From Leucoraja ocellata (lineage: Eukaryota): a stretch of 64,000 nucleotides of DNA. Below are positions 3,001-64,000 of this stretch, one piece after another. Position numbers: made by a program. The first letter of the stretch is position 1. Each line of letters opens with the position of its first letter. Location: positions 434,001-498,000 of the forward strand of contig JAWMAR010000465.1 of NCBI GenBank assembly GCA_036785375.1, read 5' to 3'.

Positions 3001-6000
3001 TCTTACAGCTTATGTCAATGGGTAGGACCTTGCATCCTTTGTCTCATTGCATTTCTGCCCCATAACACGATTGGTACAGCTTACACCAGCATGGTGATTA
3101 CATTAGTACAGCTGGGACTTGGAATAGTGAGACCAACATCCCAACTATGGAATAGAAATAGCAAACATTGCGCAACTCACAGGCTCCCCAGTTTTCAACT
3201 ACTCATTTTCATGACAGTACAGAAAATCTCTCTGTAGAAATTGGGTTAAGTATTTTAACATGTAATGACATATCAGAATAACATGAAGCCTTTAATCTGA
3301 TGGTATATGAATTAGAGAGGATTATTGGCACGGTTTAAACAAGCTCTATCAGATCTGTGGCAGGTTTAACACATAATGCGAAAAGCGAGAATGAGCTGTC
3401 AATTGTCCAAAGTTTATGACGGAGAGGTGCAAATTCACCCTGGATGTCTCCCTGGATTTGCCGAACTGTACTGTAGTGTACAGTATAATACTGATGTAAT
3501 ATACTGTAGTGTACAGTACACTAATACTGGTGGGTGGTGTTTATTACCAATCTTACTAGCAAGATCCATCCCAATGTTTCACCATCAAATCTCCCATGGT
3601 AATGATTTCTGAGCGATAAAGAAAAAATAATTTAATAATAGACATTATTAACCAGCAAGTGAGGGCATGTGCTAAAAGTTTAACCCTTTGCAGGAACTGC
3701 AGGACACAACAATACACAAGCATATGACTGTATATTTTGTAATTACATTGATATTCTACATTTTATAGCCATGGAACAACAACAAAGGTAACCTCAACCA
3801 AACATCTCATTTGCAAAACAGGCTTTATGTGTTAAGTTCCAGCAGATAATTGGGTAAACCACCATAGAAATTAAAACCATGAAGTGGAATTTTAGAAATC
3901 TAAGGCTGTTTGAGTGAAGCGTTCCAGTCACAACTGTTGACCAAATCATATCAGCTCCGCTCACTAAACAGCAGCTTTAGATGGTGATTATATAAAGGAA
4001 TGGAGACACAAATCAGTACGATAGAAGCTACCGACAATCAGAGCAGGTGACTGTAGTCCACATTTGTTTCTGAGGAAACTAGATTTTCCTTGTGGAGCAG
4101 TCTCAAGCCATATTTCAGAAATTGTAAAATCCTCAACACAAAAATTATCTCCTTTATCAATTGATCTATCAGAAATGTTTTTGAAACAAGGTAATGAAGT
4201 GTATGGGTGGTGTTTGTAGTGTATGTAATATTTGAACAGTACTGATTGCTTCAGTGTTAAATTGTTAAAGAAAAAGCACATAAATAAATAACACTATTTT
4301 CTAGTAGTCTATGCAACCCTCTATAGGAAGTACAGAGGGAAATAAATGATAAACAAATGCTATGTTTTACAAATGAGTACACAATAAATCAATACATACA
4401 GTTACCCAGAGATTTTCAGCAAACATGGATTTTAATATGGCAAAGGTACAATTTTAAGTATTAGGAAGAAAAATGCCCCAAGAACATTTTTGAAAAACTG
4501 ATAACTTTATCAGCAACAAAATTGTCAAGAAAGGGTTTCAGAAAAATCATCCATTACAGAACAATCTCCAAATGTTAGTTATGTCTCACAGCAGCACCTG
4601 TGTGCACTTGAAATGTGATTAAAACCTATTTCAGTTTCTCAGCATTAGACATGGCAAGTCTCTTCTTTGCAATGAATGATTCCCTTGTCAGTTTTCTGAT
4701 CAGATATTGCTTGTCACGACCTTGCTGCAGAAATAAATCAATGGTATATTGATGTTTTGCCATTGCTCATAAAATTACACCATCAAATAATTTATATATA
4801 CCGAATAAGCAATATATTGTACCTCCAATAAATCTAAAACAAATACATCTTGGCTTCTTTCTAGAAATTTGTTCGGATTCAATAAAGTTAAGTATTATTA
4901 GGTCAACTAGATATCTGTTAAACGATTAAACCTATCACAAGTCTCTGAATGAAATGGTAGAACAATTTGGTCATAGTTTGCAGGGTGATCTCACATACAC
5001 AAAGGGTTGAATGAGCCTGCCCCACCATTCACTTGGACCACGACAGATCTATTATTTTACAGCACCAGCAGAAAGTCTCCAATGAACACGACAACTGGTC
5101 AGAAGAAGGCTGAGGTTGGATGAACACACTAATGGTCGGCGATTTGTGTTGATCCTTTGGCAGGCTGGAAAACCAGCTTCAGGACGTTAGACTGAAGTTA
5201 GCATAGGTTTGTGAAGGGGAGGTCTTACTTGACAAATATGCTGGAATTCTTTGAAAAAGTAAATAGCAGGACAGACAAAGGAGAGTCAGTAGATGTTATT
5301 TAGATTTTCAGAAAGCCTTTGATAAGGTGCCACATGTGAGGCTGCTAAGGAAGATGAGAGCCTATGGTATCAAAGTGCAGATACAAGCATGGATATCAGG
5401 TTGGCTGGATGGCAGAACACAAGGAGTGGCAATAAAGGGGGCTATTTCTGGTTGGCTGCCAGTGATTAGTGGAGTTCCACAAGGGTCGGTGCTGGGCCGC
5501 TATTCTTCAAGTTGTATATTAAAATTAAAGGAAGTAGATGAGGAGAAACGTCTTTAGTTAGAGGATGGTGAATCTGTGGAATTCTTTGCCACAGACGGCT
5601 GTGGACGCCAAGTCAGTGGATATTTTTAAGGCAATGATAAATAGATTCTTGATTAGTACGGGTGTCAGTGGTTATGGGGAGAAGGCAAGAGAATTGGGTT
5701 AGGAGGGAGATAAATCAGCCATGATTTAATGGCAGAGTAGACATGATGGGCCGAATGGCCTTATTCTACTCCTATTCCTTATGACATTAATCCTATTGAT
5801 AACGGTTCTATTGTAAACAAACGATCTTCTAAAGCAATGTGGATAAGTTTAGCAGCATCAAAATGTGCAGATTCTCCCAACATCAACTTAACATAGTATT
5901 GTTAAGCTGATGACAGTACTGGGTCATCATTTGTAATATTCAAATCAGTTCTTCCCATCTGTACCAGGAACCACAACAATGCCAAGAAAAAAACTTGCAT

Positions 6001-63000: not shown

Positions 63001-64000
63001 ATCCTGTCCTCCGACAGAACTGCTAAGGACACTAAATTGTGTCCTATCTTTTCCTACACCAGTTTATGGTAGTTACTCAGTTTATCATGTGAGTTTCAAA
63101 GTAACCCTGACAAATTGGCAATAGCCTATTTGAACCAGAGATGTCTGCTAACTCCAAATAGATTGATACTTGTGATCACCTTTTGGGCAAAATGAATAAT
63201 TATACTTAGACAAAAAATTGGAATGCTGTATTTGATGGGTGGGAATTCATTTGAAATCAATTAGAATGTAGAGACAATACATGTGTTCCAAAGACTTGTT
63301 TGCTAGAATGTATCCATGATTTTGAACATTATTACTTCGTTAGTTTGGGGACTGTTTCAAATCTGAATATTATGCCTTCGTGATTCTAGAACTTTTGTAA
63401 TGTGTACTTTTAAAATGATGTATTAACTGATCTCTCTTTAGAATGCAGGGAGACATTTTGAGGAAGTACCATGTCAATTAACTAGCTACTTTATGTTATT
63501 ATGTTAGAAATCTGTTTACAAATTGAGATTTTCTTTTAGTTCTTATTAAAAAAAATTATAGCTCAACTTTTTCTTGGAATAATTGGACGTTTCTCTACAA
63601 TTTTGTTGATTACAAGGCTTTGCAAATTATTATCACAGAGATTATGCAATATAGAAGAAAGTATCCTTAAGTCATTCTAGACAAAAGTAACAATGGTCGG
63701 TTAGGTTTCAGTGGATGTATCATCTTGGAATCTAGTGTTTCTACGTGGAGAGATAACAAATAATTAAATAAATAAATACAAGAAAGAGAAAGTGAGGAAA
63801 ATGAGCCAAGACGGCAGAGGAATTAGAGTATGGGTAGAACAAATGGATGAGGCTGTGGTGGCAGAAGATACACCTGATGAGAGATTGCCATTGGAGGACA
63901 TAGTTGATGGATATAATACATCAGGAGAAAAACGGACATTATGTCAATGTTTCCAACAATTCTGGCAACTTTGCGTTGCAGTGGTGAGGTTTTTCTATCA

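What the first reader, a model, noticed from the sequence alone, without database searches (positions are those of the whole stretch)
4626..64000. TMC7 and probable TMC5 are head-to-head, mirroring the TMC8/TMC6 pair
Seen: TMC7 starts at 44230 on the minus strand and a spliced plus-strand gene begins about 4.3 kb away with TMC5-like N-terminal motifs (GYVNPGF). Known: TMC5/6 form one subfamily and TMC4/7/8 another. TMC6 and TMC8 are adjacent and divergent in mammals, whereas human TMC7 and TMC5 are on 16p but separated by other genes. Inference: this genome may keep an ancestral divergent pair that predates the vertebrate genome duplications, possibly with shared regulation or heteromeric function. 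No transmembrane exon of the plus-strand gene is in the window, so the TMC5 identity is moderate.
[Added by the scan's program, not by the reader: the finding's places include an assembly gap (unread letters, written N; its length is only estimated) at 41780 to 41908, 41924 to 42078. Whether the letters on both sides are continuous or in frame is not known: test that first.]
Basis: partly seen in the sequence, partly recalled or inferred. Interest (0 to 1): 0.7.

Follow-up and report, generated by a model that had tools for sequence, protein, structure and literature searches.

The report
Skate TMC7 and TMC5 head-to-head
This skate window holds the whole TMC7 gene and the first coding exons of TMC5 pointing away from each other, an ordinary gene arrangement that farm-animal, mouse and chicken gene lists also show.

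Summary
All 16 coding exons of TMC7 lie on the minus strand (ATG 44230, stop 4626-4628). They match 663 of 669 whole codons of RefSeq-named Leucoraja erinacea TMC7. Three plus-strand exons (54901-54977, 59645-59835, 62143-62277) match residues 1-136 of L. erinacea TMC5 almost exactly. The plus-strand gene is therefore TMC5, firmly rather than moderately.

The N gap lies in TMC7 intron 2 beside a LINE fragment. No coding residue is missing across it, and both 5' ends sit on ungapped sequence.

The two ATGs are 10.7 kb apart. The only strong CpG island sits on TMC7 exon 1. A TMC5 start about 4.3 kb away is suggested only by a small CpG-rich patch with donor sites.

Gene lists for mouse, cattle, pig and chicken place TMC7 directly beside TMC5. 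The skate therefore shows the usual jawed-vertebrate layout.

An ancestral pair older than the vertebrate duplications is a sound inference. It does not depend on this window and was not tested in outgroups. Shared regulation and heteromer formation were not tested. Low interest.

The parts
44194..44230 (-). TMC7 coding exon 1 (ATG at 44230; MNEERLPRDAKT + 1 nt), donor GTGAGT
   Evidence: 100% identical to P0002 residues 1-12
43012..43222 (-). TMC7 exon 2
   Evidence: 1 mismatch (R53K); 8 of 8 database hits named TMC7
41780..42078 (.). Two N runs (129 and 155) with 15 read bases between them, inside TMC7 intron 2
   Evidence: left flank is an RVT_1 fragment
36953..37095 (-). TMC7 exon 3
   Evidence: D128A
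35957..36124 (-). TMC7 exon 4 (GKFGTGIQSYF, first transmembrane segments)
   Evidence: P179S
33369..33451 (-). TMC7 exon 5
26337..26482 (-). TMC7 exon 6; the junction to exon 7 is 1 nt short with the canonical sites
25026..25172 (-). TMC7 exon 7
23444..23617 (-). TMC7 exon 8
   Evidence: 3 mismatches
18588..18745 (-). TMC7 exon 9
11570..11687 (-). TMC7 exon 10
10929..11026 (-). TMC7 exon 11 (CWET; start of the Pfam TMC domain)
   Evidence: PF07810, 45.4 bits
10440..10623 (-). TMC7 exon 12 (core of the TMC domain)
   Evidence: PF07810, 74.8 bits
9021..9151 (-). TMC7 exon 13
7621..7776 (-). TMC7 exon 14
6524..6602 (-). TMC7 exon 15
4626..4724 (-). TMC7 last coding exon as read through here (…AMSNAEKLK, stop 4626-4628)
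43701..44700 (.). The only strong CpG island in the window (GC 0.68, observed/expected 0.98, 105 CpG); it covers TMC7 exon 1 and its upstream side and is the likely TMC7 promoter
44238..44465 (.). Perfect 36-bp tandem repeat, 6.3 copies, 8 nt upstream of the TMC7 ATG
48400..48811 (+). Candidate non-coding first exon or promoter of TMC5 (CpG observed/expected about 1; donors CAG|GTGAGT near 48601 and CTG|GTATGT near 48811); not verified
   Evidence: no transcript data
54901..54977 (+). TMC5 first coding exon from its ATG (the exon probably starts at 54825 or 54842, after an acceptor)
   Evidence: 100% to P0001 residues 1-26; matched by 12 of 15 other chondrichthyan TMC5 N-termini
59645..59835 (+). 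TMC5 coding exon 2
   Evidence: 98% to P0001 residues 27-90, one residue absent; matched by 10 of 15
62143..62277 (+). TMC5 coding exon 3 (…V/NPGFEPIADD…)
   Evidence: one mismatch (M>L); matched by 12 of 15

Best explanation
The window is a piece of a skate chromosome, from Leucoraja erinacea or a very close relative. It carries the complete TMC7 gene on the minus strand and the 5' part of TMC5 on the plus strand. The two genes are transcribed away from each other, and no recognisable gene lies between them.

Shown: the identity of both genes, their exon structure, their orientation, the 10.7 kb between the two ATGs, and a single strong CpG island at the TMC7 end.

Inferred: TMC7 is driven by the CpG-island promoter at 43.7-44.7 kb. 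TMC5 has its own start some kilobases away, possibly near 48.5 kb, with at least one non-coding exon before the ATG exon.

Inferred from papers: this TMC7-TMC5 adjacency is the normal jawed-vertebrate arrangement, because mouse, cattle, pig and chicken gene lists give the same order (COQ7-TMC7-TMC5-GDE1). It mirrors the TMC8-TMC6 pair. The two pairs are most simply copies of one Tmc487-Tmc56 pair that existed before the vertebrate genome duplications.

Both proteins are members of the TMC channel family, which a 2026 preprint reports to be mechanically gated ion channels. Nothing here shows that the two act together.
For: Exon-by-exon searches:
- 1 hit among 4 candidates, TMC5 of L. erinacea, E 2.7e-19.
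- 8 hits among 27 candidates, all 8 named TMC7, from 8 elasmobranch species.

Mapping of the two full-length database proteins on the window:
- 14 of 15 TMC7 junctions are GT-AG and in register.
- 663 of 669 whole codons are identical.
- The TMC domain is found in exons 11 and 12.

Profile search, 120 proteins listed:
- 100 are named TMC5.
- 12 carry generic names.
- 8 are unnamed.
- None is named as another TMC paralogue.

The three N-terminal exons are conserved in other chondrichthyan TMC5 proteins, chimaera included: 12, 10 and 12 of 15 match exons 1, 2 and 3.

In 6 of 6 species where both genes were listed, TMC5 and TMC7 sit on a contig of the same length.

Between the genes:
- 0 of 10 open reading frames have a Pfam family.
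- There are 0 Rfam matches in the whole window.

Against: - The transcription starts of both genes are unknown, because no RNA data were available. The real distance between them is therefore open.
- The gene lists in the papers give order only, not strand. I assume they are in map order. In the chicken list ITPRIPL2 stands out of place, and the pig list has one unnamed Ensembl gene between TMC5 and TMC7.
- No tree with TMC4, TMC6 and TMC8 was built. Orthology rests on near-identity to RefSeq-named proteins and on the names of the best hits.
- No outgroup (lamprey, amphioxus) was examined, so 'older than the duplications' is parsimony and not observation.
- One TMC7 junction (exon 6/7) is 1 nt out of register with canonical sites.
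Confidence: 0.85

Rival explanations
1. The pair is a functional unit. A shared bidirectional regulatory region co-expresses TMC7 and TMC5, whose products work together (for instance with a CIB protein), as TMC6 and TMC8 do. That constraint would have kept both pairs intact since before the genome duplications.
For: - The genes lie head-to-head with no recognisable gene between them.
- There is only one strong CpG island in 64 kb.
- TMC6 and TMC8 are head-to-head and are reported to form complexes (PMC4006860, passages read).
- A table in PMC7205035 lists both TMC5 and TMC7 among CIB1 interactors (passage read).
- The adjacency is kept from skate to mammals and birds.
Against: - The ATGs are 10.7 kb apart.
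- The CpG island abuts only TMC7.
- A separate CpG-rich patch with donor sites lies 4 kb away, on the TMC5 side.
- Papers describe different sites of action in mammals: Tmc7 in testis (abstract of PMC11398861, seen in the listing), and TMC4/TMC5 at intestinal microvilli (2026 preprint, passage read).
- No expression or binding test was made here.
Confidence: 0.15
2. The head-to-head arrangement is a rearrangement peculiar to skates or elasmobranchs, or arose by chance, and says nothing about the ancestor.
For: Orientation was read directly only in this window. The other species give order or chromosome only.
Against: - The same neighbours (COQ7 | TMC7 | TMC5 | GDE1) appear in lists from four amniotes.
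- Two independent pairings of a Tmc487-type gene with a Tmc56-type gene (7 with 5, 8 with 6) would be an unlikely coincidence.
Confidence: 0.05
3. The apparent arrangement is an assembly artefact caused by the gap in the window.
For: Two N runs lie inside the TMC7 gene.
Against: - TMC7 exons 1-2 and all three TMC5 exons lie on one ungapped stretch, 42079-64000.
- Exons 3-16 on the other side of the gap follow in the right order, strand and register, with no residue missing.
Confidence: 0.02

Closest known systems
TMC7 and TMC5 of Leucoraja erinacea as annotated in RefSeq (P0002, P0001)
   Same: - All 16 TMC7 coding exons and the first three TMC5 coding exons are near-identical.
- Both database proteins are recorded on a contig of the same length, 39,284,920 bases.
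   Different: - Six amino-acid differences in TMC7 exons 1-15.
- A different TMC7 C-terminal ending (read-through AMSNAEKLK against AMSKLRN).
- One missing residue and one substitution in TMC5.
- A 1-nt register problem at TMC7 exon 6/7.
The window is therefore another individual, another assembly or a sister species.
Mammalian TMC8/TMC6 (EVER2/EVER1) head-to-head pair
   Same: One subfamily C gene and one subfamily B gene are transcribed divergently from neighbouring starts (and this window).
   Different: - TMC6/TMC8 overlap by about 1.6 kb in human and lie 2 kb apart in mouse (PMC4006860).
- Here the ATGs are 10.7 kb apart, and the nearest plausible TMC5 start is about 4 kb from the TMC7 ATG.
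- Complex formation is reported for TMC6/8 but not for TMC5/7.
COQ7-TMC7-TMC5-GDE1 block of mouse, cattle, pig and chicken
   Same: TMC7 stands directly next to TMC5.
   Different: - Strand is not given in those lists.
- COQ7 and GDE1 could not be looked for here. Only 4.6 kb lies beyond the TMC7 stop, where 0 of 3 open reading frames had a Pfam family, and the window ends inside TMC5.

Membership tests
TMC family (minus-strand gene) | Pfam TMC domain PF07810 | tested here: met
   Exon 11: 45.4 bits. Exon 12: 74.8 bits. Cut-off 25. The CWET motif is at 11015-11026.
TMC7 orthologue group (minus-strand gene) | Closest to proteins named TMC7 over the whole length, including the paralogue-specific N-terminus | tested here: met
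   Exon 2 search: 8 of 8 hits are named TMC7. 663 of 669 codons are identical to P0002.
TMC7 orthologue group (minus-strand gene) | Falls inside the TMC7 clade, apart from TMC8 and TMC4, in a tree | not tested
   No TMC4 or TMC8 sequences came to hand.
TMC family (plus-strand gene) | TMC domain and transmembrane exons | not testable with these tools
   These exons lie beyond 64000. The full-length relative P0001 carries PF07810 as a precomputed annotation. The three exons in the window have no Pfam match, as expected for the N-terminus.
TMC5 orthologue group (plus-strand gene) | N-terminal exons match TMC5, and the matched protein's best relatives are TMC5, not TMC6 | tested here: met
   - Identity to P0001 in the exon alignments is 100%, 98% and 98% for the three exons.
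- Of the 120 proteins listed, 100 are named TMC5 and none is named as another paralogue.
- Chondrichthyan TMC5 N-termini match exons 1, 2 and 3 in 12, 10 and 12 of 15 cases.
- A [YFH]xNPx[FYLM] motif before G[KR]FG is found in 69 of 112 named hits and in 0 of 8 TMC7.
Bidirectional-promoter gene pair (starts less than about 1 kb apart; the definition is recalled) | Divergent transcription starts within about 1 kb, usually in one CpG island | tested here: inconclusive
   The orientation is divergent. The ATGs are 10,670 bases apart, the CpG island lies only at the TMC7 end, and a second CpG-rich patch lies at 48.4-48.8 kb. The starts are unknown without RNA data.
Pair duplicated by the vertebrate genome duplications (TMC7-TMC5 and TMC8-TMC6) | Both pairs lie in paralogous chromosome blocks, and a single pair exists in outgroups | not testable with these tools
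   No eukaryotic genome collection was available. The support comes only from published trees and gene lists.

The most novel reading that the evidence does not exclude
The divergent Tmc487-Tmc56 pair is a very old unit of gene order. It would have been formed by an inverted tandem duplication in an early animal and already been present in the chordate ancestor. It would then have been kept intact in two copies (TMC7-TMC5 and TMC8-TMC6) through the vertebrate genome duplications, because the two genes share regulatory DNA or because their products work together with CIB proteins.
Probability: 0.2. Interest if true: 0.45.

Novelty: already known. Interest (0 to 1): 0.15.

Why it matters
There is little here beyond good annotation. 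Both genes are already named in RefSeq for a near-identical skate, and the same neighbourhood is printed in gene lists for mouse, cattle, pig and chicken.

The one idea of wider interest is that TMC7-TMC5 and TMC8-TMC6 are two surviving copies of one ancient divergent pair, perhaps held together by function. That idea can be drawn from mouse data alone and needs outgroup genomes and expression data, not this window.

I found no paper in the searchable library that states it. Searches found no statement about a TMC5/TMC7 head-to-head or bidirectional arrangement. The two papers that founded the family (Kurima 2003 and Keresztes 2003, both recalled) were not held, so I cannot say it is unpublished.

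Tried and rejected
- **Accession numbers as an adjacency proxy.** I asked listing of cluster members for the accession numbers of TMC5 and TMC7 in five species. The database was switched off and the query was not sent.
- **Keresztes et al. 2003.** The paper is not held under its PMC id, DOI or PubMed id. Whether it already describes the TMC5/TMC7 arrangement remains unchecked.
- **Profile search for a tree.** I used a profile of P0001 plus P0002, hoping to obtain TMC4, TMC6 and TMC8 for a tree. The 120 listed proteins included none named as another TMC paralogue, so no tree was built.
- **Complex prediction.** Not used. I do not claim that the proteins bind, and only 136 residues of TMC5 are in the window.
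- **Pfam on intergenic and flank ORFs.** 0 of 10 intergenic ORFs and 0 of 3 ORFs beyond the TMC7 stop have a family. No COQ7-like exon was seen, which is weak evidence over 4.6 kb.
- **Rfam on the window.** 0 matches.
- **ORF 63768-63998 (+).** It has no family and no match to TMC5, so I do not count it as an exon.
- **PDB search with P0002.** It found only the nematode TMC-1 and TMC-2 structures, and none for TMC5-8.
- **Human gene order.** No paper in the library listed it, so it rests on recollection.
- **Joined spliced model.** I did not build or search one. Searches were made exon by exon and with the database's own full-length proteins.
- **Closed resources.** The collections metagenome contigs and viral contigs, and supplementary files of papers, were closed. 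Supplementary gene tables could hold strand and coordinates for the listed species.
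Full report
**What the window is.** The window has 42% G+C and a CpG observed/expected ratio of 0.41. 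It is full of LINE and SINE-like fragments. Its two genes are nearly identical to RefSeq-named proteins of the little skate Leucoraja erinacea. I take it for a skate, either that species or a very close relative, and not for human.

**The gap, tested first.** The N runs are 41780-41908 and 41924-42078, with 15 read bases between them. They fall in TMC7 intron 2. Exon 2 ends at 43012 at coding nucleotide 248, and exon 3 starts at 37095 at nucleotide 249. Both junctions are GT-AG, and all 13 residues across the junction match the reference. No coding sequence is lost and the frame continues. The left flank of the gap encodes a reverse-transcriptase fragment (RVT_1, 44.5 bits), so the gap sits in or beside a retroelement. 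The true length of the intron is unknown. TMC7 exons 1-2 and all TMC5 exons lie together on the ungapped stretch 42079-64000, so the head-to-head relation does not depend on the gap.

**TMC7 on the minus strand.** I searched one exon alone (exon 2, 69 residues). It gave 8 proteins among 27 candidates, all 8 named TMC7, from eight elasmobranch species. The best was P0002 of L. erinacea at 99% identity.

- Mapping P0002 on the window with tblastn found every part of the protein, from the ATG at 44230 down to 4647.
- Refining the junctions gave 16 coding exons. Of 15 junctions, 14 are GT-AG and in register.
- Translating each exon on its own gave 663 identical codons of 669 in exons 1-15, with no internal stop.
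- Pfam finds the TMC domain in exon 11 (45.4 bits) and exon 12 (74.8 bits), against a cut-off of 25.
- The last exon, read through, ends AMSNAEKLK with the stop at 4626-4628. That resembles the ends of P0003 and P0004. P0002 (isoform X1) ends differently, presumably through another 3' exon.

**One oddity in TMC7.** At the exon 6/7 junction the strong canonical sites (AAGAG|GTAATT and TTCAG|GCAGTG) leave the frame one nucleotide short of the register needed for WIVKR/AVEGF. All four TMC7 proteins I read have that sequence. The cause is either a one-base difference in a run of G in this assembly or a non-canonical splice. I could not decide between them.

**TMC5 on the plus strand.** GYVNPGF does not occur in any single reading frame (0 hits). 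NPGF starts an exon at 62143, and the preceding GY ends an exon at 59835, with the V codon split between them.

- The exon at 62145-62276, searched alone, gave one protein among 4 candidates. This was P0001, 'TMC5 isoform X1 [Leucoraja erinacea]', 928 residues, E 2.7e-19.
- Mapping P0001 gave residues 1-26 at 54901-54978 (100%), 27-90 at 59646-59834 (98%, one residue absent) and 91-136 at 62143-62277 (one substitution).
- Nothing from residue 139 onward matches the plus strand, so the rest of the gene lies beyond 64000.
- The N-termini of 15 other chondrichthyan TMC5 proteins, chimaera included, match these three exons in 12, 10 and 12 cases. They reveal no further exon between 44 and 55 kb.
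- A profile search with P0001 and P0002 listed 120 proteins. Of these, 100 are named TMC5, 12 have generic names, 8 are unnamed, and none is named as another TMC paralogue.
- A YxNPxF-type motif ahead of the G[KR]FG motif occurs in 69 of 112 named hits and in 0 of 8 TMC7 proteins.

The TMC5 identity is therefore strong and not moderate. It rests on near-identity to a database protein and on names, not on a tree.

**Between the genes.** The two ATGs are separated by 10,670 bases.

- The only strong CpG island in the window is 43701-44700 (G+C 0.68, observed/expected 0.98, 105 CpG). It covers TMC7 exon 1 and its upstream side.
- Inside the island, starting 8 nt upstream of the ATG, is a perfect 36-bp repeat of 6.3 copies.
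- At 48400-48800 there is a small patch with CpG observed/expected about 1 and two good donor sites.
- A good acceptor 60-77 nt before the TMC5 ATG shows that at least one non-coding exon lies upstream.
- None of 10 open reading frames in or near the interval has a Pfam family, and Rfam finds nothing in the whole window.
- Only 960 of the 10,670 bases recur elsewhere in the window. These are mostly a SINE-like element with up to 17 copies.

On this evidence the pair is divergent but is not a tight bidirectional-promoter pair.

**Comparison with what is known.** I read passages, not whole papers.

- A review states that subfamily B is TMC5/6 and subfamily C is TMC4/7/8. It says TMC6 and TMC8 lie head-to-head, overlapping by 1.6 kb in human and 2 kb apart in mouse, and that the eight genes map to six locations (PMC4006860). 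It also says TMC6 and TMC8 form complexes.
- Erives and Fritzsch report that Tmc487 and Tmc56 are sister genes from a duplication in early animals. TMC7 split from Tmc48 in stem vertebrates, and TMC4 from TMC8 in jawed vertebrates (PMC7003098).
- Gene lists printed in unrelated papers give:
  - mouse: Smg1, 4930583K01Rik, Syt7 (as printed), Itpripl2, Coq7, Tmc7, Tmc5, Gde1 (PMC4493743);
  - cattle: COQ7, TMC7, TMC5, GDE1 (PMC4355494);
  - pig: GDE1, TMC5, one unnamed gene, TMC7, COQ7 (PMC7338773), and TMC5, TMC7, COQ7 (PMC8338966);
  - chicken: COQ7, TMC7, TMC5, GDE1 (PMC11050503).
- In 6 of 6 elasmobranch species for which both genes were listed, TMC5 and TMC7 sit on a contig of the same length.

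Adjacency of TMC7 and TMC5 is therefore the common state from skates to mammals and birds. From memory, the block from CLEC19A to TMC7 appears inverted in human relative to mouse. No call checked this. If it is right, human is the exception.

**Verdict on the interpretation.** The mirror with TMC8/TMC6 is real, and one ancestral Tmc487-Tmc56 pair copied by the genome duplications is the economical reading. However, this follows from the mouse annotation as well as from this window. It was not tested in lamprey, amphioxus or other outgroups, because no eukaryotic genome collection was at hand. The orientation in the other species was not seen. Shared regulation and heteromer formation remain speculation. 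The only lead is a table that lists both TMC5 and TMC7 as CIB1 interactors (PMC7205035). Against that, mammalian work places Tmc7 in testis and TMC5 at intestinal microvilli.

**What was left out.** Searches used single exons or the database's own proteins. No tree with TMC4, TMC6 and TMC8 was made. The two founding TMC-family papers were not held. Supplementary files, which might give strands and coordinates, were closed.

**Score.** This is a correct observation of an ordinary, already annotated gene arrangement, so interest is low.

Noticed in passing
window 44238-44465: A perfect 36-bp tandem repeat of 6.3 copies (100% matches) starts 8 nt upstream of the TMC7 ATG, inside the CpG island. 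It is open in the ATG's frame with no upstream ATG. It may be a recent expansion, a variable-number repeat, or an assembly effect.
   Followed up: partly
window 26337 / 25172 (minus strand): The TMC7 exon 6/7 junction is 1 nt out of register with the strong canonical splice sites, yet all reference TMC7 proteins read KR/AVEGF. The cause is a single-base difference in a G run or a non-canonical splice.
   Followed up: partly
window about 59717 (plus strand): TMC5 exon 2 lacks one residue (QSS-VWRN) that is present in the aligned TMC5 of Leucoraja and of Rhinoraja, Pristis and Heterodontus. This is an in-frame 3-nt difference.
   Followed up: no
window 4626-4724 (minus strand): The read-through C-terminus AMSNAEKLK resembles Rhinoraja and Narcine TMC7, whereas the Leucoraja X1 isoform ends AMSKLRN. 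This suggests an alternative 3' exon not located here.
   Followed up: no
window 45835-45967, 49018-49157, 51246-51318 and elsewhere: A short SINE-like element with up to 17 copies in the window accounts for most of the repeated DNA between the two genes.
   Followed up: partly
window 12617-16436, 20518-20808, 40847-41779: Retroelement pieces lie in TMC7 introns: endonuclease (14537-15271 +), reverse transcriptase (15690-16436 +, 20518-20808 -, 40847-41779 -), and a weak GIY-YIG match below the cut-off (12617-13177 -).
   Followed up: partly
window 22301-23100 and 56201-56500: Secondary CpG-rich patches lie inside TMC7 intron 8 (observed/expected 0.81, 55 CpG) and inside the TMC5 intron after the first coding exon (observed/expected 1.08). 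The 224-residue ORF at 22330-23001 has no Pfam family.
   Followed up: no
window 43953-44100: An imperfect ACCCCG-type simple repeat lies in TMC7 intron 1, next to the CpG island.
   Followed up: no
window 54825-54900 (plus strand): If the TMC5 ATG exon starts at the acceptor at 54824/54825, it carries a short upstream ORF (ATG at about 54830, 12 codons) before the main ATG (read).
   Followed up: no
window 63768-63998 (plus strand): A 77-residue ORF running to the window's end contains an ATG. It has no Pfam family and no match to TMC5, so it is probably intronic.
   Followed up: partly
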